From contig CAYOKE010000002.1 in the NCBI GenBank assembly GCA_964404515.1, forward strand, positions 1 through 52,198: 52,198 nucleotides of DNA, in the 5' to 3' direction. The translations under genes and the position numbers were made by a program. This stretch comes from an uncultured Gammaproteobacteria bacterium. Lineage in GTDB: Bacteria; Patescibacteriota; Patescibacteriia; Patescibacteriales; UBA12465. The notes below the pieces were generated by a model that did not search any database, was not told the DNA's origin, and saw nothing but the letters and a program-made list of their open reading frames with translations. Below are positions 12,923 through 44,810 of this stretch, one piece after another (the stretch's first letter is position 1; each line of letters opens with the position of its first letter).

Positions 12923-14017
12923 TTATTGTTTCCCTCCAGTCTCTAGGATAGAAATTATTTTATCATCGAAATTATCGACCCACTCCTTAAAAGAGCGTTT
13001 CGCTTCTGAGGAATGGGTTTTTGATATCGCCTCAGTTATTGCCGAAAGGTCGAAGGTATCAGTTTTGGTCGCTAATCCGACCCTTTCGGCATCGGCGGCA
13101 TTGCATTTCTGCTCGAAATGATTCCTGGTCGGGATCATCAAGATATCTTTTTGCAGATAAGCAGCTTCAGCTACCGAATCGAAACCGGCGGTGCAGGCAT
13201 AGGCTGAACAGCTAGCCAAGCGGTCGATGAATTTTTTCCGATCGAGGTAATGGAAGGTCAGATTATCGCCGATTCGTGTTTCCGGGCAACGGGAATCATC
13301 CCAGAAAGCCTCAACTTTCTGGGCGGGGTTTCTTCGGCACCAGTCTTTTATCTCTTCGCTGTAGCCGGCGTTGAGGAGGTAGGCGAGAAAGAAGCCCTTA
13401 TTGGAAGGAAGCTGTTCCTTTATTTCCCGCCTAATTAGCGGCGGGCAGACAAAGATATTATCTTCTGCCAGATCCGGTTCCAGTGAAAACGACAAAGCGA
13501 TTCGCCGTGCCTGACGCGGGGCAGTGAAAGAATTGAAGAAACGAAAAGAGGCCTTGGCCATCCAGTTGATGTCCGGGAACCGGAAAGAAGGATGGTTGAT
13601 AAAATATTGGTGGCCGATGCAGAACATCGGGCGCTTTTCCCGGTAAAGGCGGTAATAGTTCCCAGCCATCGATTCATAGAAGTTAACTAAAATATCGGGC
13701 TGGCTAGAAAGGACTATCTGACGGATTTTCCTCAAAGCTCTAGTGTAACGCGGCGTTTGCCAGACCGTAAATAGGCTGCTACGGAAGACCTTGATACCTT
13801 TATTTTCCTTGTCCGTTATGAAACGCGGGCTATCTATTTTAGTTATCAATTCGGCCGGAACCTGATCTTTGAAAAAGACGGGAAGCGGTTTCTTAACGTC
13901 GGCTCCGACGATAATCGATACTACAAAATGCCCCCTAGCTTCCAGTTTTTCTTTCAGGGTTAGGGCCTGGGAGAAATGGCCGCGACCCTCGCCTTGGATG
14001 AAGAAAAGATATTTCAT
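12923..14017 (-). CDS. glycosyltransferase (MJ1255/GT28 C-terminal-domain-like)
   Basis: N-terminal FFIQGEGRGHFSQALTL motif and a GT-B-like size (364 aa). Confidence 0.55.
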   Translation of the reverse strand: MKYLFFIQGEGRGHFSQALTLKEKLEARGHFVVSIIVGADVKKPLPVFFKDQVPAELITKIDSPRFITDKENKGIKVFRSSLFTVWQTPRYTRALRKIRQIVLSSQPDILVNFYESMAGNYYRLYREKRPMFCIGHQYFINHPSFRFPDINWMAKASFRFFNSFTAPRQARRIALSFSLEPDLAEDNIFVCPPLIRREIKEQLPSNKGFFLAYLLNAGYSEEIKDWCRRNPAQKVEAFWDDSRCPETRIGDNLTFHYLDRKKFIDRLASCSAYACTAGFDSVAEAAYLQKDILMIPTRNHFEQKCNAADAERVGLATKTDTFDLSAITEAISKTHSSEAKRSFKEWVDNFDDKIISILETGGKQ

Positions 14018-14206
14018 GTTGTAATTTTTGGTTTTATTATAGCCGACTGCCCCTACCTAAATAATAAATAGAGCGAAACGATTTTAATAATAATTTAATT
14101 ATAGAGATAATTAGGCAAAAAGGCAAAAGTAGCGATCAATATATAATGTTGATTAAAAAGAACTTTTTAGTTAGCATAATGCCATTGGAGATGATATAAT
14201 CATTTT

Positions 14207-15628
14207 ATGTCAAATAGTCTAAAAAATTTTTTTTGGCACCCTGATAATTGGTGTAAATTATTGGTATGGGCAGGGTTATTTGGCCTAACTATATTTTTCC
14301 ATTCTGATCATGGTTTTAACGGCGACGAGGGGATAATTTTAAATGGCGCCTGGAACTTGATTAATAAACGCCATCTGTATGGTGATTTTTTTGAGTTTAT
14401 ACCCCCGGGTAGTTTTTATTTGCTTTTTGGTGTCTGGAAGATTTTTGGTGTGAATTTTTTGGTCGCTAAAACATTAGCTATATTATTTTTGTTCCTCGGA
14501 GCGGTAGGTTTATATAAAATAGCGCGGTTAGTTATTAAAAATGAACTGGTAAATATTTTAGCCCCTCTAACTTTTGTCATAATGTCTGGCTGGTGGTGGA
14601 TTATTAACCATAATATCTTTAATTTGACGTTTTTAATCTGGTCTAGCTATTTCTTTGTCCGAGGATTGGATAATTTTAAAAAAACAGATTTTGTGGCCAG
14701 TGGTTTTTTGGCTGGTGTGGCGATTTTATTTCTTCAACAGAAGGGCTTGGCTTTTTTTGGCGCTTCATTTCTATTCCTAATAATTTTAGCAATTTTAAAA
14801 AAACGGGCCGTATACTTAAGATCTATTGGGTTATTTGTTGTATCTAGTTTTCCGCCCTTGCTATCATTGTGTTTTTGGCCGTTGAAATTAATTTTTTATA
14901 ATCTTGTCCAGTATCCATTTTTAGGATATATAGTCGTCAATAGAAGATCTTATGGCTTATTAATCGCCAGTTTGATTTTGTGGTTGGTTTCCCTTTTAAT
15001 ATTATTAGCCACCAAAGAGAAGGCAAAAAAAATTTATTTTTTGCTCTTTCTGCAACTATTTTTTTTGCTGTCGGCTTATCCTCTGCCAGATTTTTATCAT
15101 ATTAGTTTGGTGTTTTTTCCATTTTTGCTAATAATTTTTTATTTAGCCACTAGGATATTTAACATTTATCGGCATAAATTTATTAAAATTTATTTTATTA
15201 TAATCCTGGTGATAGTTTTGTCAATCCTAACCGTGTTTAATTTATTTGTTAATTCGCCAGCTTTTAGTTTGGAAGAAAACAATAATCATCAACTGATAGA
15301 TTTTGTTGATATTAATTGTCCGGGAAGATATTTATACTCTGGTCCATTTTCCCCAAATATTTATTTTGAAACTAGAAAATTAAACGCTACGCCATATAGT
15401 TTTCTGATAACACGACAAGCAACGTCAGAGCAGTTTGTTGATGCTTTACGTAATTTTAGGGAATATCAACCAACTTGCGCCATCCTGTTATATCCCGAGT
15501 CATTTTCTAAGTTCAAACATGATAGAAATAATATATTAGAAACATATATTAGAGATAGGTATAGTTTAATTTATCAGTCATTAAAGGGAGATTTATTTGT
15601 TTATAAAAATTTAGAAGATAGTAAATAA
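14207..15628 (+). CDS. GT-C fold membrane glycosyltransferase (ArnT/PMT-like), putative
   Basis: More than 10 TM segments with an acidic first-loop motif (FNGDEG) and a soluble C-terminal domain. AT-rich gene. Confidence 0.5.
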   Translation: MSNSLKNFFWHPDNWCKLLVWAGLFGLTIFFHSDHGFNGDEGIILNGAWNLINKRHLYGDFFEFIPPGSFYLLFGVWKIFGVNFLVAKTLAILFLFLGAVGLYKIARLVIKNELVNILAPLTFVIMSGWWWIINHNIFNLTFLIWSSYFFVRGLDNFKKTDFVASGFLAGVAILFLQQKGLAFFGASFLFLIILAILKKRAVYLRSIGLFVVSSFPPLLSLCFWPLKLIFYNLVQYPFLGYIVVNRRSYGLLIASLILWLVSLLILLATKEKAKKIYFLLFLQLFFLLSAYPLPDFYHISLVFFPFLLIIFYLATRIFNIYRHKFIKIYFIIILVIVLSILTVFNLFVNSPAFSLEENNNHQLIDFVDINCPGRYLYSGPFSPNIYFETRKLNATPYSFLITRQATSEQFVDALRNFREYQPTCAILLYPESFSKFKHDRNNILETYIRDRYSLIYQSLKGDLFVYKNLEDSK

Positions 15629-15732
15629 TAATTGTCTGATTGCCAGATTAATTATAGATAATGAGGCGGGTCTCAGTTAGCAACCAAAACCTTTATTTAA
15701 ATAAAAAATAGCCTTTTTCGAGACTATTTTTG

Positions 15733-15804
15733 AGCGGGTAAGCGGAATCGAACCGCCATCTTCAGCTTGGAAGGCTGACATAATAACCATTATACGATAC
15801 CCGC
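15733..15804 (-). tRNA. tRNA-Gly (UCC)
   Basis: Reverse complement is GCGGGTATCGTATAATGG...TCAGC-CTTCCAA-GCTGA...GGCGG-TTCGATT-CCGCT-TACCCGC. Confidence 0.9.
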
Positions 15805-15867
15805 GATAAAGGCGGGGTTACCCCGCCGATAATCATTAATATTATATAATTTTAGCCCTAAAGTCAA

Positions 15868-17046
15868 TTATTTCGTATCTTTGAGGGAGAGGACGAATCC
15901 TAGGCCAGCGATAGTTACGATCGCCATAATGAGGAAGAGGTAGTTGAGCGGGAAGAAACTAGTAACCAAGATAGCCAAAATCGGTCCGATAATATAGCCT
16001 AAAGGTATGGTTGTCCGGAAAATGTTGATGCAGCCGATATCCTTAGCTCCGACTAGCTTGAAAAAATAGGTTTCCCTCATCGCTTCGACTAAGGCCGCCC
16101 CGACCCGGCTAGCGAATAGGACGGCAGCCCAGAGCCAGGCTGTCGGCGTTTCAATCAAATAGAATAAAAATAAGGAGACAGATATGATGAAGATGCCGAT
16201 GAACATTATCTCTTTCTCTCCGATATATTTGTCAGCGATTATTCCGGCCGGGATTTCGAAAATCAGGAAGGGGACGAGCATCAAGGAAAAGATGACACCT
16301 AATACCCCCCAATCCATACCAAGGTTCTGGTGCAGGTAGATGGGGATATAGACGACAGCCGAGCTGTAGAAAATCTGAAGCAATAAAGCGATGGAGAAGA
16401 TGCCGCGTAGGTTCTTGTTTCTCCACATCTTCTTGATCGTTGAGGCAATCTTTTCCTTAGAATATTTAATATCATCCTTTAGGCTACGTCCCTGGTATAA
16501 GAATATGAGGAAAGCGGGGACGACCAGCAAGGCCGCGACCAAGAAAGTCAGAGTATATTCCCCATTGCTAATCAACCAGCTGGCTAATGACGGAGAAATA
16601 ATCCAACCGAGGTTAATAAAAGTGAAATAAATCGTCCTAGTTTCTCCGACAGACGAATTTTTAGAAAAATATTCCACCAGGACATCCATATTAATCCATA
16701 GTAAGTTGGTGGCGATAGTGTACAGGATAATCGCCAGGAGTGCGCCTAAGCCGTTATCAGCCGCTGTCAGCCCTAAGAGGGAGATGAGATAGACTACGAG
16801 GACCACTTTGGTCATGAAGTAGTTGGTTAGCCGCTTTATCCATCGTGGGTAGAATATAATAACTAAGACTGTTAAGAGGTTGGAGATTATGAAAAATATG
16901 CTGACTAGCTTGAGGCTGACGAATTGTCCCAGGAAGTTAGATTGGAGATAGGCGGGTAGGGCGTTAGAAATGGCCAGGAGCAAACCCAAGACGTATAAGA
17001 TGGAGAGCTGGAAGTTATAGTTTTTCTTCGTTTTTTTTCCAGGCAT
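15868..17046 (-). CDS. MFS transporter
   Basis: About 12 TM segments. 392 aa. Confidence 0.7.
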   Translation of the reverse strand: MPGKKTKKNYNFQLSILYVLGLLLAISNALPAYLQSNFLGQFVSLKLVSIFFIISNLLTVLVIIFYPRWIKRLTNYFMTKVVLVVYLISLLGLTAADNGLGALLAIILYTIATNLLWINMDVLVEYFSKNSSVGETRTIYFTFINLGWIISPSLASWLISNGEYTLTFLVAALLVVPAFLIFLYQGRSLKDDIKYSKEKIASTIKKMWRNKNLRGIFSIALLLQIFYSSAVVYIPIYLHQNLGMDWGVLGVIFSLMLVPFLIFEIPAGIIADKYIGEKEIMFIGIFIISVSLFLFYLIETPTAWLWAAVLFASRVGAALVEAMRETYFFKLVGAKDIGCINIFRTTIPLGYIIGPILAILVTSFFPLNYLFLIMAIVTIAGLGFVLSLKDTK

Positions 17047-21320: not shown

Positions 21321-22190
21321 ATGAAAAAGTCAGTCATTATTATGGTGATGTTGGTCGTTTCGACCGTTTCCGCCATCAGTTTGAGCGCCCAACCTACGAA
21401 ACAGGAGCGCAAACAGCTTGAATCCTTGGATCGTGAGATCCGGAAGCTTGACTTCCAGATCAATCGTCTGGAACTCAAGATATACTCCAGCGGCTATTCC
21501 CATATTGATTATTTAGGGGAAATAAAGATCCTAAAGGCCAAGGTTGACTCTTTGGCCAGATTCAAACCTAAGAACGTAGTCGAGATGGCCCAGCGCGACG
21601 CCCAGATCACCAAGCTGGATAGTATGATCCAGCACGATTATCAGCAGCTGGCCAAACAGCCCGATGTTCGCAACCTTGTCCAGGACCTGAACTGGAAATG
21701 GCAGCACCTTGAAAAGTTAATCAAGATTCGAGATGTAATTTATGACCACGTGTACACCTCCAACCAAATCCCCAAAGAGATGGGCAATGTGACTGTACAT
21801 CGCCGTCTAAATTCCAATGTTGTCCGTCGCCAGGAAATGGTGATTGGCAAGATTGAGAACAACCTCAACGGGACTTCGGTGTCGGTCGCACCGACCGACA
21901 CTGGCATGATCACCTCTGCTGGTTACAAGGTAATATTCCACAACTATTACTACGACAATGTCAATTTTAGGGTTGAGCCACTTAATGGCGGAGACCGGAC
22001 ATCCTACACGCTTAAGTCGGGAGGTAAGGAAGTCCATTATCTTATCCCTGGGTCATACCTAATACACTATTACAGCGCCGGGACTGAACTCTGCTCGCCT
22101 CAGATTATGACCATCGACGGTCAGGTGCGATCTTATGAGGGTGAACCATGCTACAATTTCGCCTATATGCCGAATTCCATCAGGCGTTAA
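21321..22190 (+). CDS. secreted hypothetical protein (coiled-coil N-half, beta-rich C-half)
   Basis: Signal peptide MKKSVIIMVMLVVSTVSAISLSAQ. No recognisable domain. Confidence 0.7.
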   Translation: MKKSVIIMVMLVVSTVSAISLSAQPTKQERKQLESLDREIRKLDFQINRLELKIYSSGYSHIDYLGEIKILKAKVDSLARFKPKNVVEMAQRDAQITKLDSMIQHDYQQLAKQPDVRNLVQDLNWKWQHLEKLIKIRDVIYDHVYTSNQIPKEMGNVTVHRRLNSNVVRRQEMVIGKIENNLNGTSVSVAPTDTGMITSAGYKVIFHNYYYDNVNFRVEPLNGGDRTSYTLKSGGKEVHYLIPGSYLIHYYSAGTELCSPQIMTIDGQVRSYEGEPCYNFAYMPNSIRR

Positions 22191-22306: not shown

Positions 22307-22723
22307 TTATCCACCAGTAAAGCCCTGCGGTTTGACTGATCCGCCTCCGAAAGGTAGAACCTTGAAGATGAAATAAGTGATAGCGAAAGCCGCTAAGACT
22401 ACCACTAGGCCAATAACGGCCATGGTTATAGTTTTAGTGGCTTTTTTTACTTGTTCTTCATTTCCGCCCGCTGTCATCCAGCGGAAGCCGGAGAAAAGCA
22501 CGAGGACTAGGAAAATGACGGCCAGGAAGCCGAGGGCCGTTTGAATTATGACCGCTACTAAGTGTCCGATGGTGGTTCGGCCGTAGTTGGCCGTCTTAGC
22601 GACCTCATCAGTCATCATATTCAGTTCTTCCAGTCCTTCCGTATCGATCAATTGGGCAGAGGCACCGTGAGAAGCAAAGACGATGATAAGCAGTGACCAG
22701 GCTAGAAGAAGATATTTTTTCAT
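22307..22723 (-). CDS. VirB2/TrbC-like pilin-family small membrane protein, paralog 1
   Basis: Signal peptide, variable segment, TM helix, loop FRWMTAGGNEEQVKKA, second TM helix. Confidence 0.75.
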   Translation of the reverse strand: MKKYLLLAWSLLIIVFASHGASAQLIDTEGLEELNMMTDEVAKTANYGRTTIGHLVAVIIQTALGFLAVIFLVLVLFSGFRWMTAGGNEEQVKKATKTITMAVIGLVVVLAAFAITYFIFKVLPFGGGSVKPQGFTGG

Positions 22724-22724
22724 A

Positions 22725-23126
22725 TTATCCCTTGAGTATTAGATTTTGTAAGACAAAATTCCAAAGCGTCCAGGCCGAAACGGCTACGATTAAGCCGATT
22801 ACAGCCTGTTTGATGGTGTTCATGGCTTTTTTTACTTGTTCTTCGTTTCCGCCCGCTGTCATCCAGCTGTATCCGGCTAAGATCATGAGGATTATGAAGA
22901 CTACGCCGAGGAGGCTCAGAAATAGCCCGACGACTGTACCGATGATTATCGGCGTCGAAACAGATGAACTGGTATTATAGCCGCCAGCCGTCCCGACCGC
23001 CGTCAGCATTTTTAAGAGATGGTTAGATTCCGTGCTCGATTCGGCTTGAGAGCCCTCCGCCGAAACGCTAGCCGGAATTATCATTAGGGAAGCCGCTAAA
23101 ATTAAGGCAAAGATTATTTTTTTCAT
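22725..23126 (-). CDS. VirB2/TrbC-like pilin-family protein, paralog 2
   Basis: Same architecture, with loop YSWMTAGGNEEQVKKA. 1-nt gap to paralog 1. Confidence 0.75.
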   Translation of the reverse strand: MKKIIFALILAASLMIIPASVSAEGSQAESSTESNHLLKMLTAVGTAGGYNTSSSVSTPIIIGTVVGLFLSLLGVVFIILMILAGYSWMTAGGNEEQVKKAMNTIKQAVIGLIVAVSAWTLWNFVLQNLILKG

Positions 23127-23135
23127 ATTTTCTGA

Positions 23136-23534
23136 TTATTTAGAAGCAGACGTTAGGAGCAGACGAGAGAATACGCTCCCCAGGAAAGAGCTCATTAGAT
23201 AGGCGGCGAGTATAAGGCAGAGCCCGATTAGGAGATTGCGGATGGTGGCTTTAGCCTTCTTCGTCTTCTCTTCGTTGCCAGCGGCTTGCATCCAATTATT
23301 TCCAGCTATGAAAGCCAGGACTAAGAATATGGCCCCGACTAGGCTTAAGGCGAGGCGGATTATGGTACCGATCAGGTTCGCCAAGTTAGCATCCTTATTA
23401 TAGCCGTCGCCCGCCAGATTATTCAGATTATTGTTATATTCAAGCAGTTTATTGTCGTTCAAGAGGCCTGCTTGGGCGAAATTAAAAGCCAGGAGGGAGA
23501 TGAGGACTGCGATAATAGCGATTATCTTCTTCAT
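23136..23534 (-). CDS. VirB2/TrbC-like pilin-family protein, paralog 3
   Basis: Loop NNWMQAAGNEEKTKKA. Signal peptide ends AQA. Confidence 0.75.
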   Translation of the reverse strand: MKKIIAIIAVLISLLAFNFAQAGLLNDNKLLEYNNNLNNLAGDGYNKDANLANLIGTIIRLALSLVGAIFLVLAFIAGNNWMQAAGNEEKTKKAKATIRNLLIGLCLILAAYLMSSFLGSVFSRLLLTSASK

Positions 23535-23547
23535 ATTTATATCTTTA

Positions 23548-23943
23548 TTAGCCCCCTAAGCGCTTCAGGATGAAATAGCTGATGACGTAAGCGGATAAGA
23601 CTATTATCAGTCCGAACACAGAAGACATCAGTATGCCATTAGCCTTTTTGACTTTCTCCTCGTTGCCGCCGGCTGTCATCCAGATGAAACCGCCGTAAAT
23701 CAGGAGAACCATGAAAATTACGCCGACAAATCCCAGGACGCTATAAATTACATTGCCAATTAGCTGTTCTGGCGTAGTGGCATCACCGTCTGTAGCATAG
23801 CCGCTAACTTCGGCCGTTTTGTTCAAGCCGCTTTTTTCTTTAAAGGTGTAGGTGTCTTCAGCCAGGGCCGGAAGGGAGAAACAAAGGCTGATAATTAAAA
23901 ACGCTAGGATGATTATTGATTTTGAGAAGAAATTCTTTTTCAT
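23548..23943 (-). CDS. VirB2/TrbC-like pilin-family protein, paralog 4
   Basis: Loop FIWMTAGGNEEKVKKA. Signal peptide ends ALA. Confidence 0.75.
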   Translation of the reverse strand: MKKNFFSKSIIILAFLIISLCFSLPALAEDTYTFKEKSGLNKTAEVSGYATDGDATTPEQLIGNVIYSVLGFVGVIFMVLLIYGGFIWMTAGGNEEKVKKANGILMSSVFGLIIVLSAYVISYFILKRLGG

Positions 23944-24332
23944 TATATTAAAGCTTCACCCAAGAAAGACGTCAAAGCATAGGCGGCCAAGACGATGATA
24001 ATCCCTATGATAGCATCTCTTAGTAGCGTCTTAGCTTTAGAAATTTGTTGTTCATTGCCCTGGGATACCATCCACAAGACTCCAGCGTATATCATTAGAA
24101 CGAAGAAAAGAACGCCCACGAAGGATAGGACAGTGCCGATCAGTTGTCCGGCCTTAGTTTGTAGGAAACTTTCTGGTTTTAAGGGGTCTATTTGACTTTT
24201 ATAAGCGTCGACCGCATTAGCGGTCGAATTGAGACCTTCTAAGGTCGGGTCCACATTGTCCGCCCAGGTTGGCGATAGAGAGAAGAGACTTAGGGCCAAA
24301 AGGAAGAAGATAGAAAATATTTTTTTCTTCAT
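23943..24332 (-). CDS. VirB2/TrbC-like pilin-family protein, paralog 5
   Basis: Loop VLWMVSQGNEQQISKA. TAATG stop/start overlap with paralog 4. Confidence 0.75.
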   Translation of the reverse strand: MKKKIFSIFFLLALSLFSLSPTWADNVDPTLEGLNSTANAVDAYKSQIDPLKPESFLQTKAGQLIGTVLSFVGVLFFVLMIYAGVLWMVSQGNEQQISKAKTLLRDAIIGIIIVLAAYALTSFLGEALI

Positions 24333-24343
24333 AGAGATTTATT

Positions 24344-24384
24344 CACTGGCCTAAACATAAGCCCAGCTTACGCTTAGGCCAGTG
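24344..24384. other. 11-bp perfect hairpin between pilin paralogs 6 and 5
   Basis: CACTGGCCTAA (24344-24354) pairs with TTAGGCCAGTG (24374-24384), with a 19-nt loop. There is no U-run on the minus strand, so it is not a canonical terminator. Confidence 0.5.
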
Positions 24385-24428
24385 GCACTCATCAGGCGAT
24401 GAGAGTCACTGGGTAGTTTATTATTCCG

Positions 24429-24806
24429 CTACGTCATGTTAGTAGCACTGTTAAGGGAGTTGAATATGAATGTGGCTATCGCCCAGGCCATCAAGATGAT
24501 AACCAGGCCGATAACGCCTGCTCCCATCAATTTTTTAGCTTCGGAAGCCTTTTCTTCGTTCCCTCCGGACGTCATCCATTTGAAACCAGCCAGTATGATA
24601 ATGACCACTGCGATTACGCCCAAGAAACCGAGCGCGATAGTGATTATCCGACCGATGACGGTTCTCGGGTCTTCTACGGTCATGGAGCCGTTGATCCCAT
24701 TGTTGATTTCCCCAATACCGTAGTTAACTTGTGCCATGGCTAGCATGGGCAGAGTCAGCAAAGAGATAATCGCGAGAGACAGTAAGTATTTTGAGAATTT
24801 TTGCAT
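24429..24806 (-). CDS. VirB2/TrbC-like pilin-family protein, paralog 6 (duplicate A)
   Basis: Loop FKWMTSGGNEEKASEA. Residues 1-116 are nearly identical to paralog 7, with a shorter C-terminus (..SATNMT). Confidence 0.75.
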   Translation of the reverse strand: MQKFSKYLLSLAIISLLTLPMLAMAQVNYGIGEINNGINGSMTVEDPRTVIGRIITIALGFLGVIAVVIIILAGFKWMTSGGNEEKASEAKKLMGAGVIGLVIILMAWAIATFIFNSLNSATNMT

Positions 24807-24911
24807 ATTTCACCACCTTTCTAGTTTTTATTTTTTTAGCTTACGTTTCTAATTCTAATAAAATTCTTTATGCTAGAATAGGGGCAGGAGGCTTGTTTTA
24901 TTGGCTATTTT

Positions 24912-25017
24912 ATGGCAAAAATCAAAAAGCTTAAATTTATCTGGTTTTTGGACTTTTTTTCTATATTTCTTTGTTTGGGCTGCCCTTGAATAACTCTTTC
25001 AGCTACCTGGACCCTGG
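24912..25017 (+). pseudogene. truncated, frameshifted 5' remnant of the 25564..27150 gene
   Basis: Starts with the same ATGGCAAAAATCAAAAAGCTTAAATTTATCTGG. The T-run is 7 nt rather than 8 (24954-24960 vs 25606-25613), giving a TGA at 24987-24989. Homology ends at ~25016. Confidence 0.85.
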
Positions 25018-25050
25018 CTGGCGATGAGAGTCACTACATGTAGTTCACTA

Positions 25051-25458
25051 TTATTTCGGCGGTTCCGACGGTGCGGTGTTTCCCCCCATTCCAGTAGCAC
25101 TGTTAAGGGAATCGAATATGAATGTGGCTATCGCCCAGGCCATCAAGATAATAACCAGGCCGATAACGCCTGCTCCCATCAATTTTTTAGCTTCGGAAAC
25201 CTTTTCTTCGTTCCCTCCGGCCGTCATCCATTTGAAACCAGCCAGTATGATAATGACCACTGCGATTACGCCCAAGAAACCGAGCGCGATAGTGATTATC
25301 CGACCGATGACGGTTCTCGGGTCTTCTACGGTCATGGAGCCGTTGATCCCATTGTTGATTTCCCCAATACCGTAGTTAACTTGTGCCATGGCTAGCATGG
25401 GCAGAGTCAGCAAAGAGATAATCGCGAGAGACAGTAAGTATTTTGAGAATTTTTGCAT
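25051..25458 (-). CDS. VirB2/TrbC-like pilin-family protein, paralog 7 (duplicate B)
   Basis: Loop FKWMTAGGNEEKVSEA. C-terminal extension GMGGNTAPSEPPK. Strong SD (AAAGGTGGTGA) upstream. Confidence 0.75.
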   Translation of the reverse strand: MQKFSKYLLSLAIISLLTLPMLAMAQVNYGIGEINNGINGSMTVEDPRTVIGRIITIALGFLGVIAVVIIILAGFKWMTAGGNEEKVSEAKKLMGAGVIGLVIILMAWAIATFIFDSLNSATGMGGNTAPSEPPK

Positions 25459-25563
25459 ATTTCACCACCTTTCTAGTTTTTATTTTTTTAGCTTACGTTT
25501 CTAATTCTAATAAAATTCTTTATGCTAGAATAGGGGCAGGAGGCTTGTTTTATTGGCTATTTT

Positions 25564-27150
25564 ATGGCAAAAATCAAAAAGCTTAAATTTATCTGGTTTT
25601 TGGGCTTTTTTTTCTATATTTCTTTGTTTGGGCTGCTCTTGAATAACTCTTTCAGCTATCTCGATCCTGATTTTGGATGGCATCTGAGGGTCGGCCAGGA
25701 AATCGCTCAGACCGGTTCTGTCCCGCATGACAATCTTTATAACTATACTTTCACCGGGCATTGGGTCGACCATGAATGGCTAAGTAATTTTCTAGTTTAT
25801 CAAGTCTATTCTCATTTTGGCTATGTGGTCCTTAGCGTCATGTTCGCTTTCCTTATTATCGTTGTTTTGCTGATATTAGCTTCTCGGGCCCGCTTTATGT
25901 TTCCTGACAAGTTTTCTCCCTTTCTCCTGGCTTTTTTACAGCTGGTTGGGGTAGCAGCTTGCCTGCCGCATCTTGGTATCAGGATTCAGGAAGTAGCCTG
26001 GCTATTTTTACTGATCCTGTTAATCGGTCTACATTCCTATAATAAATCAAAGGATTGGCGTTGGCTTGTATTCTTCCCGTTTTGGTTGTATCTTTGGGCA
26101 AATCTCCATGCCAGTTTCTTGATAGGTTTTTTTCTGTTTTTCGCTTTCATAGCCGTCAAATCCTTAGAAAAGTTGATTGCTGGTTTCCGTTGTTCCAATT
26201 GGCTGGACAAGTCCCGGTTTATAGGTTGGAATAACATATGTTTATTAGCAGTTAGCCTCGCCGTATCCTTATTATTCGCCTTCTTTACTCCCTATCGGGG
26301 CGAACTATTCTCTTTTTTGGGCGGTTATGGCAATACGGTCTATTTTTCCTATATCGAAGAATGGCTATCACAATTTTCCTATCCTTTCCTATATCGTCAA
26401 TTGTTTTATTTGGCGATAGTATTCCTGGCCATTCTAGTCTATCTTTATGAAGTTTATCGTCGGCAGAGGAAATTAGATCTCTGGACGTTATGCGTCGTCA
26501 GCCTTTTTTTCCTTCTGGCTTTCAAGTCGCGTCGGCACTTTCCTTTGCTCTTCGTGAGCTCTTTTTTCTTCCTGGTAGAAGTCTATACCCCGTATTTTTA
26601 TATAGAATCAGGCAAACAGCGGCAGAAAAGCACGGTTTGGTTGAACGTCTATTTGCTATTAGCGATCATCCTTTTGACTGTTTCACAATTTTTTCAGATT
26701 CGTTGGATAACTGATCCTTTCACTGGCTTTTGCCGGTCTTTTCCTTGTGGAGCCGTAGAATTTCTCAAATCAAGACCAGATGCCGGGAATATCTTCAACC
26801 ATTATTGCTGGGGAGGATACCTGATTGCCGTCTGGCCGGAAAAAAAGATCTTTATCGATGGTCGTTTGCCGCAAGTCGAATATGCTGGGCATACTTTCAT
26901 AGAGGAATATATGGCTTTTTATAAGGCAGAAGATAGTCCTAAAAAATTAGCGGAATATGATATCAGGATGGTTATCTTGCCTGCTAAAGATTCGAGCTTG
27001 AAGATACATAACTGGGAAAGGCTTATATTTATGATTAGGGAAAAAGAATTGGATAGTGTTAACCCCCTCCGTGGTTATCTGATGTCGGCGCCAGATTGGC
27101 AACGCGTTTATTACGATCCCGTAGCAGCTGTCTTTATAAAGAGAGAATAA
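25564..27150 (+). CDS. polytopic membrane protein, GT-C-like glycosyltransferase (putative)
   Basis: About 12 TM segments, an acidic first-loop motif (YLDPDFGWHLRVG) and a soluble C-terminal domain. Immediately followed by a GT2 gene. Confidence 0.45.
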   Translation: MAKIKKLKFIWFLGFFFYISLFGLLLNNSFSYLDPDFGWHLRVGQEIAQTGSVPHDNLYNYTFTGHWVDHEWLSNFLVYQVYSHFGYVVLSVMFAFLIIVVLLILASRARFMFPDKFSPFLLAFLQLVGVAACLPHLGIRIQEVAWLFLLILLIGLHSYNKSKDWRWLVFFPFWLYLWANLHASFLIGFFLFFAFIAVKSLEKLIAGFRCSNWLDKSRFIGWNNICLLAVSLAVSLLFAFFTPYRGELFSFLGGYGNTVYFSYIEEWLSQFSYPFLYRQLFYLAIVFLAILVYLYEVYRRQRKLDLWTLCVVSLFFLLAFKSRRHFPLLFVSSFFFLVEVYTPYFYIESGKQRQKSTVWLNVYLLLAIILLTVSQFFQIRWITDPFTGFCRSFPCGAVEFLKSRPDAGNIFNHYCWGGYLIAVWPEKKIFIDGRLPQVEYAGHTFIEEYMAFYKAEDSPKKLAEYDIRMVILPAKDSSLKIHNWERLIFMIREKELDSVNPLRGYLMSAPDWQRVYYDPVAAVFIKRE

Positions 27151-27156: not shown

Positions 27157-27909
27157 ATGCTAATAGAATTTTGCCTGCCGATAAAAAATGAAGAAAAGAT
27201 ACTGGGCGCTAGCCTGGAAAAGCTGTTGTCTTTCTGCCAGCAAGCCGGTTTTGACTTTGATTGGCGTATCGTTGGCGTAGTGAACGGCTCGACTGATAGC
27301 TCGGCCGCAATTTGCCGGGAGTTTAAGCGCCTTTTCTCGGGCCGGGTAGATTGTTTCGAGGTATCCGAGCCAGGACGCGGACGGGCACTAAAAAAATATT
27401 GGCAAACCAGCCGGGCGGATATCTGCGCCTATATGGATGCAGATTTGGCTGTCGACCTGAGGTTCCTGCGGCCGTTGATCGAGCCGCTTATCAGAAATGA
27501 AGCGGATTTGGCTATCGGTTCCCGGCTTTTGGGCGATTCCCAGACTAAGCGTTCTAGCTGGCGGGAATTAATTTCTCATGGTTACAACCTTTTTATCCGT
27601 TTTCTTCTCCAACAGAAGGTCTCTGACCTGCAATGCGGTTTCAAGGCGATTAGGCGTCCGGCCTTCGAAGCACTGAGCCCGTATTTTTTGCCGCCACACC
27701 GTTTCTACGATTATAATTGGTTCTTCGACACAGAACTTGTAATTTTGTCTGAGAGGCTGGGTTACCGAGTCAAAGAGGTGGCGGTTGATTGGCAGGAGAA
27801 TCGTTTCCAGAAACGGAAGACCAAGGTAAAATTCCTCCACGATATTCGCCTGTTCATGCTTAATGCCTGGGCCCTCAGAAGACATTTGCGGAAGCTGAAA
27901 AAGAGATAG
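27157..27909 (+). CDS. family 2 glycosyltransferase (polyprenyl-phosphate sugar synthase-like, Dpm1/GtrB/ArnC type)
   Basis: Small GT-A with a DXD motif (YMDADLAVD). 250 aa. Confidence 0.7.
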   Translation: MLIEFCLPIKNEEKILGASLEKLLSFCQQAGFDFDWRIVGVVNGSTDSSAAICREFKRLFSGRVDCFEVSEPGRGRALKKYWQTSRADICAYMDADLAVDLRFLRPLIEPLIRNEADLAIGSRLLGDSQTKRSSWRELISHGYNLFIRFLLQQKVSDLQCGFKAIRRPAFEALSPYFLPPHRFYDYNWFFDTELVILSERLGYRVKEVAVDWQENRFQKRKTKVKFLHDIRLFMLNAWALRRHLRKLKKR

Positions 27910-29603: not shown

Positions 29604-30026
29604 CTATTTTTCTTCTACTAGCCCCTGGGTGGTGAGGTCCATCTTTTTTCCGTTCCAGTCGATGCCCATGCTTTTCAAGACAAATTTGATGATTAGGAAG
29701 CTGGAAAAGACGATTACTAGGCCGACAACCGCAGCAATCAGTATCTTTTTAGCCTTGTCGATGCTCTGGCTATTGCCGGCTGATATCAAAAACATCAGAC
29801 CGCCGTAGACGAACATCAGGAGGGATAAGGAGCCGACGACTCCTAACACCCAGTTCGAGGCTCTGATGGCTAGGATGGTGAAATCATCAAGGACATAGTT
29901 ACCTTCCTGATAGGCGCTATCAGTTGTGTCGACAATCGAGTTTTGCACTTGAGCGTGCGATAGCGGCAGTCCGATAGTCAGGGTTAGGCCAACAAGGAAA
30001 GAAGTAATGATTATTTTTTTAGTCAT
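29604..30026 (-). CDS. VirB2/TrbC-like pilin-family protein, divergent paralog 8
   Basis: Signal peptide (..PLSHAQ), TM, loop LMFLISAGNSQSIDKA, TM, and a longer C-terminal tail. Confidence 0.65.
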   Translation of the reverse strand: MTKKIIITSFLVGLTLTIGLPLSHAQVQNSIVDTTDSAYQEGNYVLDDFTILAIRASNWVLGVVGSLSLLMFVYGGLMFLISAGNSQSIDKAKKILIAAVVGLVIVFSSFLIIKFVLKSMGIDWNGKKMDLTTQGLVEEK

Positions 30027-30033: not shown

Positions 30034-31404
30034 TTAATTAATTGTCTGTTGGACTTTTGAGGCGGCCTGGTTGATTATATTTTGCAGGCGTTCGCCGGTA
30101 TTTTCGACTACCGCGTCAATCATCTCCTTAATCGCTTCTTCGGCGGCGGCAACGTTCTTACCCTTATACCAGCTTTTGGCTGTCAAGACTTGGCTGGCAA
30201 AAACACTTAACTCGTCATTATTTCTACTGCCGTTTACTAGGGAACGCAGGGCTGGTGGGCGCTTGGTCTTCTCCAGATAGGTCCTAGCTTGTTCTTCTTT
30301 GGTAATGAATTGGATGAAGTCCCAAGCTTCGTTCGTATGGGCACTTTTTTTAGAGACAACCTCTACCCAGTAATTGGCGAAATTAACTGGCGGGTTTCCC
30401 TCGATTTGCGGGAGAGTGGCAACGGAGAAGTTGAGTTTTGGTGCTTGGGCCTTGATAGTCGGGAGGTCATAGGAATAGCTGAGCATCATTGCTAAGTTAC
30501 CGCTGATAAACATGCTGAGCGAGTCAGGCAGTTCGCTATTCCAGGAATAGGCTTCAGTCGTCGGGTTGGTGAAATCAGTATAGAAGATCAAGGCTTGCAG
30601 GCCGGGGTTATAATTGGTGTTTCGGTTGTTCTCCGGCACAGCATTGAAAGCTACCCGGTTGCCTTCAAACATGACGGCACCGTTCTGCATCATGAGGACC
30701 GAAAGTATGTCGCTGAAACGATTGACGTTGCTGCTCCCGCCTAAGGCCACGCCGGACTGGATGATACCCTTTTTCGAGTCCTGTTTGGTCATTTTTTTGA
30801 CGGCCTGGAAGAAATCTGCGTTCCAATATTTCGGTACTTGGCTGATGCCGGCGTTATTGAACAGGTCTTTATTATAAAAAAGCGCCAGGGTATCAACGGA
30901 TAGGGGTAGGCCATAGACTTGGTTATTGTCTAAGATGACATCATAACCGACAACGTCGACAAAATTATCCCTTATTTCTTTGAGCGATAAGCTGTTAGTC
31001 GTCCGGAGCTGGTTGACCACCTGTTTCTTTACCGTTCCGGTCGTCACTGGGTATACCATAGTGATGGTTGCCGGCATAGGTGTTAGCTTGGATTGGTATT
31101 TCTTTAGCCAGGTATTGTGGATTGAGAAAATATCCGGGCCACGATCTTCCGCCAAGGCATTGAGCAACTCTTTTTCGTATTCGTCATAACGCAGTTTCCG
31201 GTAGTCAATCTTGACATACGGGTGCAGGGCTTGGTATTTCGTAATTATTTCTTGGAAAGAGTCAGAATCATCGAAGACTCGCCAGTAGGTCAAGGTAACC
31301 GGCTTCATAGCTTCTTCGGTCGCTTTATTGGTGAGCTTGCAGCCAAAGCCTGCGGTTAAGACAAAAACGGCCAGTAAGGATAAGATCGTTATTTTTTTGA
31401 GCAT
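30034..31404 (-). CDS. extracellular solute-binding protein, family 1 (sugar-type), probable lipoprotein
   Basis: N-terminal LTAGFGC lipobox-like motif. SBP_bac_1-like sequence. No transporter partners adjacent. Confidence 0.75.
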   Translation of the reverse strand: MLKKITILSLLAVFVLTAGFGCKLTNKATEEAMKPVTLTYWRVFDDSDSFQEIITKYQALHPYVKIDYRKLRYDEYEKELLNALAEDRGPDIFSIHNTWLKKYQSKLTPMPATITMVYPVTTGTVKKQVVNQLRTTNSLSLKEIRDNFVDVVGYDVILDNNQVYGLPLSVDTLALFYNKDLFNNAGISQVPKYWNADFFQAVKKMTKQDSKKGIIQSGVALGGSSNVNRFSDILSVLMMQNGAVMFEGNRVAFNAVPENNRNTNYNPGLQALIFYTDFTNPTTEAYSWNSELPDSLSMFISGNLAMMLSYSYDLPTIKAQAPKLNFSVATLPQIEGNPPVNFANYWVEVVSKKSAHTNEAWDFIQFITKEEQARTYLEKTKRPPALRSLVNGSRNNDELSVFASQVLTAKSWYKGKNVAAAEEAIKEMIDAVVENTGERLQNIINQAASKVQQTIN

Positions 31405-43878: not shown

Positions 43879-44271
43879 TTAGAGGTTATCTTTTAGGAAA
43901 TTAGCTAATTCTATAAGCGGTTGCTTTTTGCTGTCCCAATGATAGGTTTTGATGCTGGCCGACTGGGCGCTCGCCACAGCTTCGGGGCTATGCTCAAAAT
44001 AGATGGCTTCCTCGGGTTTCAGGCCAAAATGATTAAGCATTTGGCGGTAATATTCCGGGTTGGTTTTATTCGGATTGTGTTTGAGGGTAAAGACTTTGTA
44101 TGGCGCCTTATCCAAGCCGAATTTTAGGAGCTGTTCGCCATTGGCATTAGTAAGGATGATTTTTTGGTTTGGAAAGTCGTCGAGCATTTTCTGGAGAGGC
44201 GTAAAAATCTTGAAATCATTTGCGATTTCAATAACCAAGGTACCGACCGCGTCGACGAGGATAGTTTTCAT
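43879..44271 (-). CDS. HAD-like hydrolase (small)
   Basis: N-terminal motif I-like ILVDAVGTLV. 130 aa. Confidence 0.5.
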   Translation of the reverse strand: MKTILVDAVGTLVIEIANDFKIFTPLQKMLDDFPNQKIILTNANGEQLLKFGLDKAPYKVFTLKHNPNKTNPEYYRQMLNHFGLKPEEAIYFEHSPEAVASAQSASIKTYHWDSKKQPLIELANFLKDNL

Positions 44272-44810
44272 ATTTGATTAATTATATCCATTAATTCCGT
44301 AGTAGCAAAATGCAAGACATAAGGAATAAACCTGGTTTTTTCTTCATCGGTCAAATTCAGTAATTTATTGAGCGTCCAAACTTCAAACCCCAAAGCCTTA
44401 CCTGCTTCAATCTTCAAATCCTTAACATCTCCTTTATAAATATAGACGTATCTGGCATTAAAAACATTATTTATTTTATTAGCGGTCTTATCTTCAGAAT
44501 ATTTTTTTATCTTGTTTATCAAAATTAAATCACTAGATTTAATTTTTACGCCAGTTTCTTCCCCAGTTTCTTTAATGGCGGTTTCTTCATAACTATCGCC
44601 TATCTCAACATGTCCGCCGACGGTGGCGTCTAATAAATTAGGATAGACATCCTTGTCTTTTGCTTGATGTTGAAAGATAATCTCCTTGTTTGGAGTAATA
44701 AAATAAACATGTATTTCTCGGTGAAGCAAACCATTTTTATGAATATTTTCTCTGGTTTCTTCGCTGATTATTTCGTCATGGTCATTAACGATATTTAATA
44801 TTTTTTTCAT
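44268..44810 (-). CDS. NUDIX hydrolase (IDI-like)
   Basis: Nudix box GGHVEIGDSYEETAIKETGEETGV. Start set at MKKILNIV to avoid a 41-nt overlap. Confidence 0.8.
   Translation of the reverse strand: MKKILNIVNDHDEIISEETRENIHKNGLLHREIHVYFITPNKEIIFQHQAKDKDVYPNLLDATVGGHVEIGDSYEETAIKETGEETGVKIKSSDLILINKIKKYSEDKTANKINNVFNARYVYIYKGDVKDLKIEAGKALGFEVWTLNKLLNLTDEEKTRFIPYVLHFATTELMDIINQI

What the first reader, a model, noticed from the sequence alone, without database searches (positions are those of the whole stretch)
22307..25458. Seven tandem VirB2/TrbC-like pilin paralogs with an invariant W-M-T-A-G-G-N-E-E loop, hypervariable exposed segments and no secretion machinery nearby
Seven consecutive minus-strand genes encode 125-138 aa proteins with one shared architecture:
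- a signal peptide (MKK..., ending A-x-A);
- a 30-50 aa segment that cannot be aligned between paralogs and is often S/T/N/G-rich;
- a hydrophobic helix;
- the loop W-M-(T/Q/V)-(A/S)-(G/Q)-G-N-E-(E/Q)-x-x-x-K-A;
- a second hydrophobic helix.

This helix-loop-helix hairpin after a signal peptide is the topology of conjugative VirB2/TrbC pilins. I recall a Pfam family named T4SS_pilin for such proteins in candidate-phyla bacteria.

Paralogs 5 to 1 are packed with 1-13 nt spacers or a TAATG overlap, so they form one operon.

At the DNA level the loop-coding segment is 44 nt with a single mismatch between 22439-22482 and 22824-22867. That is a ready substrate for recombination or gene conversion.

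None of the 52 kb encodes VirB4, VirB6, VirB8-11, VirD4, a relaxase or a type IV pilus ATPase.

Conserved membrane cores with diversified exposed parts, in many tandem copies, suggest a variable surface filament or adhesin repertoire. In an episymbiont this could mediate host contact. The assembly pathway is not evident.
Basis: partly seen in the sequence, partly recalled or inferred. Interest (0 to 1): 0.75.

Follow-up and report, generated by a model that had tools for sequence, protein, structure and literature searches.

The report
Patescibacterial VirB2-like pilin gene array
This is a chromosomal row of seven small secretion-system "pilin" genes in an ultra-small (Patescibacteria, class ABY1) bacterium; such arrays are already described, but here it proves to be a fixed, anciently inherited set of six distinct genes, not a shuffling surface repertoire.

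Summary
Seven tandem minus-strand genes (22307-25458) and an eighth copy (29604-30026) all pass the Pfam gathering score for PF18895 (T4SS_pilin). Each has a signal peptide, an acidic 22-35 aa ectodomain and a confidently modelled two-helix hairpin. No T4SS machinery was found in the 52 kb.

The kind is already published: 441 VirB2-like arrays of 2-11 genes in Patescibacteria, often far from virB4 (PMC12102498), and an essential array in Southlakia (PMC10633639).

The "variable adhesin repertoire" reading is not supported. In 83 related species-level loci the modal state is exactly six tandem genes plus one solo gene. Best hits keep their array position in 83.5% of comparisons. The seventh gene is a recent ~652-nt duplication of gene 1. 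The 44-nt identity between p1 and p2 is a lineage-specific gene-conversion footprint.

Related ABY1 genomes with these arrays are listed as VirB4-positive, so the machinery is probably encoded elsewhere.

New side observations:
- a conserved, covarying tandem-hairpin RNA after the first pilin gene;
- a divergently transcribed, unannotated GT-C-fold glycosyltransferase plus a GT2;
- an orphan solute-binding lipoprotein gene immediately upstream of the solo or first pilin gene.

The parts
25051..25458 (-). p7: first gene of the array (orthogroup a1), 135 aa. Upstream copy of the recent duplication.
   Evidence: PF18895 42.2 bits. Best hit is position a1 in 36 of 36 genomes.
24429..24806 (-). p6: second copy of orthogroup a1, 125 aa. 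It has its own identical copy of the upstream region and keeps the downstream RNA hairpins.
   Evidence: PF18895 42.8 bits. 98% nucleotide identity to p7 over 300 nt. Junctions shown.
24436..25016 (.). Copy A of the ~652-nt tandem duplication (copy B is about 25088-25669). It holds most of the a1 gene, the 105-nt intergenic regulatory region and a dead copy of the first ~105 nt of the GT-C gene (24912-25016).
   Evidence: Five independent Logan assemblies stop at 24491, which is 30 nt past the last p6-specific variant. This is a k=31 graph branch.
24328..24418 (-). Conserved tandem-hairpin RNA element in the a1-a2 spacer. It is a candidate attenuator, processing site or 3' stabiliser that uncouples expression of a1 from a2-a6.
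   Evidence: MFE -39.7, z -7.0. 27 pairs, 16 with compensatory changes. 93.4% of cells paired against 81.7% in shuffles, 0/500. The covariance model scores 72.7 bits here and hits once per locus in about 56 loci. No Rfam match.
23943..24332 (-). p5 (orthogroup a2), 129 aa
   Evidence: PF18895 30.6 bits. 73% identical to L007 a2.
23548..23943 (-). p4 (orthogroup a3), 131 aa. This is the protein modelled by AlphaFold2.
   Evidence: PF18895 42.2 bits. pLDDT 83.9, helices 58-89 and 95-129.
23136..23534 (-). p3 (orthogroup a4, the least stable position), 132 aa
   Evidence: PF18895 37.1 bits. Positional concordance only 40%.
22725..23126 (-). p2 (orthogroup a5), 133 aa
   Evidence: PF18895 44.8 bits.
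22307..22723 (-). p1 (orthogroup a6), 138 aa
   Evidence: PF18895 42.1 bits.
22439..22482 (.). Gene-conversion tract in p1. Its partner is 22824-22867 in p2.
   Evidence: 1 mismatch in 44 nt. The tract runs 45 nt with at most 1 mismatch, against at most 18 nt in the other 14 paralog pairs. 11 of 12 synonymous codons are identical against a 37% background, P=1.6e-4. It is absent from the a5/a6 pairs of three other genomes.
25459..25563 (.). 105-nt divergent intergenic region between the array and the GT-C gene. It was duplicated intact upstream of p6.
   Evidence: No sigma-70 consensus match was found here.
25564..27150 (+). 528-aa polytopic membrane protein with a GT-C fold, divergent from the array. 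It is a conserved neighbour, and a functional link to the pilins is inferred only.
   Evidence: No Pfam, NCBIfam or PDB-sequence hit. AF2 pLDDT 88.8. The top 32 Foldseek hits are all GT-C enzymes. D34 and D36 are invariant. Present in 46 of 83 loci.
27157..27909 (+). GT2 glycosyltransferase, 7 nt downstream of the GT-C gene. It weakly resembles polyprenyl-phosphate sugar synthases.
   Evidence: PF00535 at 1.8e-23. Weak NCBIfam hits to AglJ, ArnC and dolichyl-phosphate hexose transferase.
29604..30026 (-). p8: solo eighth pilin paralog, 140 aa, with loop L-I-S-A-G-N-S-Q-S
   Evidence: PF18895 34.3 bits. 64% identical to the L007 solo gene.
30034..31404 (-). Orphan SBP_bac_1 solute-binding protein, a probable lipoprotein, 7 nt upstream of p8. 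No ABC permease is nearby.
   Evidence: PF01547 at 2.7e-32. N-terminus ...LTAGFGC. An SBP lies immediately upstream of the first or solo pilin gene in 55 of 83 loci, in both architectures.

Best explanation
The region is a chromosomal, vertically inherited operon of VirB2-like pilin paralogs of Pfam family PF18895. It belongs to a Patescibacteria (CPR) bacterium of GTDB class ABY1, Falkowbacteria-like.

Shown here:
- Each gene encodes a pre-protein with a basic N-terminus, a hydrophobic signal peptide and an A-x-A type cleavage site.
- The mature protein is about 100-115 aa. It has an acidic, paralog-specific ectodomain of 22-35 aa followed by two ~30-residue hydrophobic helices.
- The helices are joined by a tight, K-rich turn, W-M-x-x-x-G-N-E.
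- The array is an ordered set of six distinct orthogroups (a1-a6) plus a solo seventh gene 4 kb away. Both are conserved across dozens of species.
- The window has seven array genes only because a1 was recently duplicated together with its upstream region.

Inferred:
- By the positive-inside rule the N- and C-termini lie outside the membrane and the conserved turn lies inside. This is the VirB2/TrbC topology.
- The proteins are exported by Sec, cleaved by signal peptidase I and held as a membrane pool.
- A T4SS encoded elsewhere in the genome (VirB4, VirB6-like, PrgI-like; monoderm MPF-FATA type) extracts them and assembles a pilus-like or conduit structure used in contact with a host cell.
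- This follows the essential pilin series within the Southlakia T4SS cluster.
- The fixed six-gene composition, and the conserved tandem-hairpin RNA after a1 only, suggest one abundant (major) subunit and five lower-abundance specialised subunits.
- They do not suggest interchangeable variants.
For: - Family membership: all eight proteins exceed the PF18895 gathering score. Four of seven also exceed the cut-off of NCBIfam NF045849, 'Mbov_0395 family pilin-like conjugal transfer protein'.
- Weak, in-register similarity to TrbC/VirB2: PF04956 up to 23.9 bits over profile positions 11-98 of 98. hhalign against real VirB2 aligns TM1-WM-loop-TM2.
- Fold: AF2 pLDDT is 96-98 across a two-helix hairpin.
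- Topology heuristics agree across all seven proteins.
- Conservation: 51 of 83 loci have exactly six tandem genes, and 39 have seven per locus.
- Same-position orthology holds, and positional concordance is 83.5%.
- The peptide pattern WMT[AS]GGNE matches at least 598 places in GTDB species representatives.
- Machinery elsewhere: ABY1 assemblies ADurb.Bin115 (L034, same architecture as the window), GW2011_GWF2_45_11 (L064), Gr01-1014_13 (L086) and HGW-Kuenenbacteria-1 are listed with 'Presence of VirB4 = Yes'.
- VirB4 is present in 2,417 of 3,035 assemblies. Pilin genes are near virB4 in only 1,135 of 1,948.
- Function by analogy: the predicted pilin subunits in the Southlakia T4SS cluster are essential. 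A review describes them as six divergent VirB2-like pilins.
- Differential expression: the a1-a2 spacer has a median of 93 nt, against 2-9 nt for the other spacers. It carries a covarying double hairpin.
Against: - No T4SS gene lies on this contig or within +-10 kb of the array in any of the 83 related loci. The link to a T4SS here rests on family annotation and on published presence/absence tables for relatives.
- Homology to canonical VirB2/TrbC is not established. PF04956 is below threshold, and hhalign gives only 19% probability.
- Foldseek is non-diagnostic for the pilin. Nothing reaches E<=0.001, and ATP-synthase subunit c scores as well as an archaeal conjugative pilin.
- No pilus has been visualised for any patescibacterial T4SS in the papers I could search.
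- The major/minor reading of a1 versus a2-a6 is inference from gene order, the RNA structure and conservation. There are no expression data.
Confidence: 0.7

Rival explanations
1. Variable surface or adhesin repertoire. The tandem copies would be interchangeable variants whose exposed parts diversify by duplication and gene conversion. This would vary host specificity or evade recognition, as proposed for Bartonella Trw and Anaplasma VirB2 paralogs.
For: - Ectodomains are only about 16% identical between paralogs, against 45% for the helical core.
- There is a real gene-conversion footprint between p1 and p2.
- There is a recent duplication of a1.
- Position a4 shows turnover, with only 40% concordance.
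- The survey paper also raises this idea.
Against: - One-to-one positional orthology holds across at least 36 species-level genomes (83.5% concordance, with a1, a2 and a6 at 95% or more).
- Copy number is fixed at six in 51 of 83 loci.
- Ectodomains are conserved among orthologs (43-65% against L007).
- All copies are intact and tightly packed in one operon, so there are no silent cassettes.
- The converted tract lies in the conserved loop, not in the exposed segment.
Confidence: 0.12
2. Membrane-resident T4SS (or other envelope) components that never form an extracellular filament. The hairpins would act within the membrane as part of a channel or stalk. Many T4SSs need VirB2 but show no pilus.
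For: - Two long hydrophobic helices with a short turn.
- The PDB fold search scores membrane hairpins such as ATP-synthase subunit c about as well as a conjugative pilin.
- No pilus has been observed in the literature searched.
Against: - Seven distinct, conserved and acidic ectodomains are hard to explain for a purely intramembrane role.
- The family is annotated and discussed as pilins.
Confidence: 0.15
3. T4SS-independent small secreted membrane proteins. Their conserved partners would be their genomic neighbours: the orphan SBP lipoprotein and/or the GT-C/GT2 pair. An example would be a glycosylated envelope or uptake-associated complex unrelated to type IV secretion.
For: - An SBP gene lies immediately upstream of the first or solo pilin gene in 55 of 83 loci, in both architectures.
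- The GT-C gene is divergent from the array in 45 of the 46 loci that have it.
- No T4SS genes lie nearby in any locus.
Against: - The whole neighbourhood is syntenic (PPDK-like enzyme, Lgt, MFS transporter), so adjacency alone is weak evidence.
- Type-B arrays lack the GT-C neighbour.
- PF18895 members sit inside the essential T4SS cluster in Southlakia, and next to virB4 in 1,135 assemblies.
Confidence: 0.05

Closest known systems
Patescibacterial VirB2-like pilin arrays (Quinonero-Coronel et al. 2025, PMC12102498)
   Same: - Same Pfam family, PF18895.
- Tandem arrays of 2-11 genes with low identity between members (published mean 25%, maximum 54%; here about 27-38% overall).
- Chromosomal location, often not adjacent to virB4, with no relaxase.
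   Different: [quoted passage not shown] This one is in ABY1.
- As far as I could read, it does not report the fixed six-orthogroup order, the SBP linkage, the GT-C/GT2 neighbour or the intercistronic RNA element.
- The p6/p7 pair (96% identical in the core) exceeds the published 54% maximum.
Essential pilin series in the Southlakia epibionticum ML1 T4SS cluster, SEML1_0006-0019 (Wang et al. 2023, PMC10633639; review PMC12857230)
   Same: - A series of sequence-divergent, structurally conserved VirB2-like pilins in a patescibacterium. The review counts six.
- No recognisable coupling protein or relaxase.
   Different: - There the pilin genes lie inside the T4SS cluster and are shown to be essential by Tn-seq.
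- Here the array is detached from any T4SS gene, and nothing is known about essentiality.
- Orthology between the two sets was not tested.
VirB2/TrbC conjugative pilins (Pfam PF04956; Agrobacterium T-pilus, RP4)
   Same: - Signal peptide followed by a two-helix hydrophobic hairpin, with a W-M at the end of helix 1.
- Predicted N-out, loop-in, C-out topology.
- Weak, in-register sequence similarity.
   Different: - Scores are below the PF04956 threshold, and hhalign gives only 19% probability.
- The ectodomain is much longer and acidic.
- There is no adjacent virB1, virB3 or virB4.
- The host is a monoderm.
- There are many paralogs rather than one major pilin.
Bartonella Trw (multiple TrwL/TrwJ copies) and Anaplasma VirB2 paralog arrays
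   Same: Tandem amplification of sequence-variable VirB2-type pilin genes in a host-associated bacterium whose T4SS is not used for conjugation.
   Different: Those copies are lineage-specific amplifications thought to broaden host binding or provide antigenic variation. Here the copies are ancient, ordered orthogroups conserved across many species.
Mollicutes ICE pilin-like protein (NCBIfam NF045849, Mbov_0395 family)
   Same: Four of the seven proteins exceed this model's cut-off (42-43 bits against 40). It is a small pilin-like hairpin protein of a monoderm MPF-FATA-type system.
   Different: That family is a single-copy gene on a mobile conjugative element. Here the genes form a multi-copy chromosomal array among housekeeping genes.

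Membership tests
Pfam PF18895 T4SS_pilin | HMM score at or above the gathering cut-off (26.6 bits) | tested here: met
   The seven array proteins score 30.6-44.8 bits. The eighth scores 34.3 bits.
Pfam PF18895 T4SS_pilin | Signal peptide followed by a two-helix hydrophobic hairpin | tested here: met
   The AF2 model has helices 58-89 and 95-129 with pLDDT 96-98. Hydropathy and A-x-A cleavage-site heuristics agree for all seven. SignalP and TMHMM were not available.
Pfam PF18895 T4SS_pilin | Encoded in a genome that has a T4SS (VirB4) | not testable with these tools
   The window is a whole 52-kb contig with no T4SS genes. Four ABY1 assemblies carrying these arrays are listed as VirB4-positive.
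Patescibacterial VirB2 array (PMC12102498) | At least 2 pilin genes in tandem, or separated by one non-pilin gene | tested here: met
   Seven consecutive genes with spacers of -1 to 244 nt.
Patescibacterial VirB2 array (PMC12102498) | High divergence between array members (published mean 25%, maximum 54%) | tested here: met
   Mean identity between paralogs is 45% in the core and 16% in the ectodomain. The exception is the recent p6/p7 duplicate, 96% identical in the core.
TrbC/VirB2 pilin (Pfam PF04956) | HMM score at or above the gathering cut-off (27.9 bits) | tested here: not met
   The best scores are 23.9 (p6), 22.9 (p7) and 16.6 (p2) bits.
TrbC/VirB2 pilin (Pfam PF04956) | Profile-profile homology to bona fide VirB2/TrbC | tested here: inconclusive
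   hhalign of A1 against seven real plasmid VirB2/TrbC proteins gives probability 19% and E 0.0012. The alignment is in the correct register.
TrbC/VirB2 pilin (Pfam PF04956) | Gene adjacent to virB3/virB4 within a T4SS operon | tested here: not met
   No such genes lie in the window or within +-10 kb in the 83 related loci.
TrbC/VirB2 pilin (Pfam PF04956) | Structural match to solved conjugative pilins | tested here: inconclusive
   No Foldseek hit reaches E<=0.001. The A. pernix conjugative pilin 8dfu ranks 29th with TMt 0.61, no better than other helical hairpins.
NCBIfam NF045849 (Mbov_0395 pilin-like conjugal transfer protein) | Score at or above the 40-bit cut-off | tested here: inconclusive
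   p1, p2, p6 and p7 pass at 42.1-43.2 bits. p3, p4 and p5 do not, at 28.9-36.4 bits.
GT-C glycosyltransferases (for the neighbour at 25564-27150) | GT-C fold: a multi-pass N-terminal module with acidic residues in the first extracytoplasmic loop | tested here: met
   The top 32 Foldseek hits are all GT-C enzymes, with E down to 3e-6. D34 and D36 are invariant in 40 homologues.
STT3/AglB/PglB oligosaccharyltransferases (for the neighbour at 25564-27150) | WWDYG motif and Pfam STT3 match | tested here: not met
   There is no Pfam hit. The corresponding conserved stretch reads W-G-G-Y. N-x-S/T sequons are not enriched in the pilin ectodomains.

The most novel reading that the evidence does not exclude
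The array may encode an obligately heteromeric T4SS-type pilus in a monoderm, with three features.
- One major subunit (a1) and five conserved minor or specialised subunits (a2-a6), plus a seventh subunit encoded with an orphan substrate-binding lipoprotein.
- Subunit stoichiometry set by a previously undescribed tandem-hairpin RNA after a1.
- Exposed acidic, S/T-rich segments glycosylated by the divergently transcribed GT-C/GT2 pair.

No known conjugative-type pilus is built from six or seven distinct VirB2-like subunits.
Probability: 0.15. Interest if true: 0.8.

Novelty: new member of a known kind. Interest (0 to 1): 0.42.

Why it matters
Patescibacteria make up a large share of uncultured bacterial diversity and appear to live attached to host cells. 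Their T4SS and its pilin series are the only such system shown to be essential for the bacterium that carries it. Whether a pilus is built, and from what, remains open.

This locus adds no new kind of system, but it sharpens the question in three ways:
- In ABY1 the pilin set is a fixed, ordered group of six plus one distinct proteins. This points towards a defined multi-subunit structure and away from antigenic variation.
- The conserved RNA element after the first gene gives a concrete, testable handle on subunit stoichiometry.
- The adjacent unannotated GT-C enzyme family (at least 653 homologues, all labelled 'hypothetical') gives a testable candidate for pilin modification.

Tried and rejected
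- A profile search of PDB sequences with the pilin alignment gave only spurious repeated 3.5-bit matches to designed 'Pizza' propellers.
- Foldseek of the pilin model against the PDB had no discriminating power.
- hhalign against real VirB2/TrbC was inconclusive at 19% probability.
- The first genome contigs attempt, with the 52-sequence alignment, failed because no stretch was conserved enough. A tighter alignment worked.
- The hunt for a patescibacterial VirB4 seed next to more distant pilin homologues failed. L092 is an 8-pilin array beside an SBP gene, and L093 is a pilin pair near type IV pilus genes. I therefore could not locate virB4 on the 911-kb or 896-kb relatives directly and used the published Table S1 instead.
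- Exact-product look-ups for p6 and p7 found nothing. The duplication was validated from the end points of the Logan contigs instead.
- Pfam, NCBIfam and PDB-sequence searches of the 528-aa neighbour found nothing. Only the fold comparison identified it.
- N-glycosylation sequon enrichment in the ectodomains was negative: 75 observed against 68.4 expected. The G-L-N-x-T-A motif tolerates D or E in place of N.
- The sigma-70 and terminator consensus scans gave fewer or no more sites than shuffled sequence and were uninformative.
- The idea that the hairpin is a dispersed REP-like repeat was rejected. It occurs once per locus, always after a1.

Full report
**1. Observation**

The seven minus-strand ORFs exist at the stated coordinates, with lengths 138, 133, 132, 131, 129, 125 and 135 aa. 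The spacers are 1, 9, 13, -1, 96 and 244 nt. All seven exceed the Pfam gathering score for PF18895 T4SS_pilin, at 30.6-44.8 bits against a 26.6-bit cut-off. Four of them also exceed the cut-off of NCBIfam NF045849, 'Mbov_0395 family pilin-like conjugal transfer protein'.

An eighth member lies at 29604-30026(-). An HMM built from the eight finds no further copy in the window. The 44-nt identity has exactly one mismatch.

The loop is less invariant than the title says. W-M-T-A-G-G-N-E-E is shared by four of the seven proteins. Only W, M, G6, N, E and A14 are invariant.

Pfam scans of about 57 further ORFs show housekeeping genes: IF3, L20, RNase J, a PPDK-like enzyme, SMC, Lgt, LspA, solute-binding proteins, glycosyltransferases, TsaE and L19. 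No T4SS or type IV pilus ATPase genes appear. The contig also carries the 5' part of a 16S rRNA gene and eight tRNA genes. The window is the whole contig.

**2. Protein anatomy**

An AlphaFold2 model of p4, built from a 52-sequence alignment, has a mean pLDDT of 83.9. Two long helices (58-89 and 95-129) have pLDDT 96-98 and are joined by the turn T-A-G-G-N. A short helix lies in the ectodomain.

Simple hydropathy and cleavage-site heuristics give the same picture for all seven proteins:
- a basic n-region and an A-x-A type cleavage site;
- an acidic ectodomain of 22-35 aa, with net charge -2 to -4 and an S/T/N/G fraction of 0.27-0.50;
- two ~30-residue hydrophobic segments;
- a loop with net charge 0 to +2.

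By the positive-inside rule (established knowledge) this places the N- and C-termini outside and the conserved loop inside. That is the topology of VirB2.

Direct homology to canonical VirB2/TrbC is only suggested:
- PF04956 scores reach 23.9 bits, below its 27.9-bit cut-off.
- hhalign against seven real plasmid VirB2/TrbC proteins aligns TM1, W-M, loop and TM2 in register, but at 19% probability.
- Foldseek cannot discriminate a bare helical hairpin.

**3. Already known**

Quinonero-Coronel et al. 2025 searched 3,035 patescibacterial genomes with PF18895 and PF04956.
- They found VirB2-like pilins in 1,948 VirB4-positive assemblies.
- The pilin gene was near virB4 in only 1,135 of those.

Wang et al. 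[quoted passage not shown] A 2025 review describes these as six divergent VirB2-like pilins and treats pilus formation as an open possibility.

**4. Comparative genomics changes the interpretation**

The locus is syntenic in relatives, including a 911-kb contig. A scan of GTDB species representatives with the peptide pattern WMT[AS]GGNE hit at least 598 places. The 80 best loci are mostly labelled Falkowbacteria or Patescibacteria.

Across 83 loci, 51 have a tandem run of exactly six pilin genes and 39 have seven per locus. Each window protein is 61-73% identical to the same-position gene in L007, but only 17-40% identical to genes at other positions.

Across 36 complete type-A loci the best hit in another genome lies at the same position in 83.5% of 9,144 comparisons. 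By position the figures are: a1 100%, a2 95%, a3 84%, a4 40%, a5 85%, a6 95% and solo 86%.

Ectodomains are about 16% identical between paralogs but 43-65% identical between W and L007 orthologs. The array is therefore a fixed, ordered set of differentiated subunits and not a shuffling repertoire.

**5. Lineage-specific events in the window**

(a) p6 and p7 result from a ~652-nt tandem duplication. The unit comprises most of a1, the entire 105-nt upstream intergenic region and the first ~105 nt of the divergent neighbour gene. Five independent Logan assemblies match the window with no mismatches and all stop at position 24491. That is exactly 30 nt past the last p6-specific variant, which is the signature of a k=31 graph branch. 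Both copies therefore co-occur in those samples.

(b) The p1/p2 tract runs 45 nt with at most one mismatch, against at most 18 nt for the other 14 paralog pairs. Eleven of twelve synonymous codons are identical against a 37% background (P=1.6e-4). The tract is absent from the orthologous pairs of three other genomes. It is best read as the footprint of a short gene conversion within the conserved loop.

**6. Where the machinery is**

None of the 83 loci has a VirB4-like neighbour. The recurrent neighbours are the SBP (55 loci), a ~530-aa membrane protein (46), the PPDK-like enzyme (44), Lgt (44) and an MFS transporter (42).

Table S1 of PMC12102498 lists four array-bearing assemblies as class ABY1 with 'Presence of VirB4 = Yes':
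- ADurb.Bin115 (my L034, same architecture as the window);
- GW2011_GWF2_45_11 (L064);
- Gr01-1014_13 (L086);
- HGW-Kuenenbacteria-1.

That paper also states that in ABY1 the T4SS loci lie near comF, recG and radA. The most likely situation is a T4SS encoded elsewhere in the genome. I could not test this for the window's own genome.

**7. New features of the surroundings**

(i) RNA element. The a1-a2 spacer has a median of 93 nt, against 2-9 nt for the other four spacers. It folds into two tandem hairpins with a median z of -5.9.
- RNAalifold predicts 27 pairs, 16 of them with compensatory changes.
- 93.4% of cells are paired, against 81.7% in shuffles and 36-49% when partners are slid.
- There are 70 double-change cells against 22.6 expected, with 0 of 500 shuffles reaching that value.
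- The element matches no Rfam family.
- Its HP1 motif occurs once per locus, always after a1.
- A covariance model finds it on the coding strand in about 56 loci, 39 of them outside the training set. It is not found in type-B arrays.
- No U-tract follows the second stem, so it is not a canonical intrinsic terminator.
- I infer an attenuator, processing site or 3'-stabiliser role that raises a1 relative to a2-a6.

The duplication breakpoint lies inside hairpin 1, so p7 lacks the element and p6 keeps it.

(ii) GT-C enzyme. The divergent 528-aa gene (25564-27150) has no Pfam, NCBIfam or PDB-sequence match. At least 653 homologues exist, and those that carry a name are all called hypothetical. Its AF2 model (pLDDT 88.8) matches only GT-C glycosyltransferases in the top 32 Foldseek hits. 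Those are DPY19, STT3, AglB, PglB, AftA, ALG9, AftD, Emb and Pmt4. D34 and D36 are invariant.

The next gene is a GT2 that weakly resembles polyprenyl-phosphate sugar synthases. Pilin glycosylation is a hypothesis only, for three reasons:
- the whole neighbourhood is syntenic;
- type-B arrays lack this neighbour;
- N-x-S/T sequons are not enriched.

(iii) Orphan SBP. An SBP_bac_1 lipoprotein gene lies immediately upstream of, and co-directional with, the solo or first pilin gene in both architectures.

**8. Verdict**

The kind of system is already described, and the 'variable repertoire' interpretation is not supported.

The best explanation is a conserved multi-subunit set of VirB2-like pilins served by a T4SS encoded elsewhere. 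Confidence in identity is high. Confidence in pilus formation and in the major/minor model is moderate to low.

Noticed in passing
window 24328-24418 (-); also once per locus in about 56 related loci (e.g. L007 9520-9611, L008 9512-9601): A conserved ~90-nt tandem-hairpin RNA element lies in the spacer after the first pilin gene. It shows strong covariation, has no Rfam match and has no U-tract after the second stem. It is absent from type-B arrays.
   Followed up: yes
window 25564-27150 (+) and 27157-27909 (+): An unannotated 528-aa family (at least 653 homologues, those named all 'hypothetical') has a GT-C glycosyltransferase fold closest to DPY19, STT3 and AglB. It forms an operon with a GT2 resembling polyprenyl-phosphate sugar synthases and is transcribed divergently from the pilin array.
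   Followed up: yes
window 30034-31404 (-): An orphan SBP_bac_1 solute-binding lipoprotein with no ABC permease nearby lies 7 nt upstream of the solo pilin. An SBP precedes the first or solo pilin gene in 55 of 83 related loci, in both architectures.
   Followed up: partly
window 24912-25016: A dead copy of the first ~105 nt of the GT-C gene is carried along by the a1 duplication. The duplication breakpoint falls inside hairpin 1 of the RNA element.
   Followed up: yes
window about 44000-52198: A low-GC stretch (30-35% against about 45% elsewhere) ends with a rolling-circle-type Rep gene (PF23343, 50992-51933). It also holds an AAA_21 ATPase (48349-49584) with a 178-aa partner of unknown function. 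It may be an integrated element or a defence island.
   Followed up: no
window 14001-16000: A second low-GC island (32.6%) holds a PMT_2-type GT-C glycosyltransferase (14207-15628) next to tRNA-Gly.
   Followed up: no
L093 9555-10501 and 12444-16981: In a Kuenenbacteria-like contig a two-gene PF18895 pair lies about 2 kb from type IV pilus genes (T2SSF and two T2SSE ATPases).
   Followed up: no
L092 7026-11959; L064 8150-14297: Type-B arrays of 8-10 pilin genes follow the SBP directly. Some members are much longer (171-288 aa). Two homologues (P0009, P0013) carry an extra Pfam domain, PF27259.
   Followed up: no
window 21321-22190 (+): A 289-aa secreted protein of unknown function, with a predicted signal peptide and a coiled-coil-like N-terminus, converges on the 3' end of the array. 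It is conserved in 20 related loci.
   Followed up: no
locus titles: Many GTDB representative MAGs carrying this clearly patescibacterial locus are titled 'uncultured Gammaproteobacteria bacterium' (binchicken TPA assemblies). Others are titled Bacillota, Binatia or Nanoarchaeia. These record titles appear to be placeholders or mislabels.
   Followed up: no
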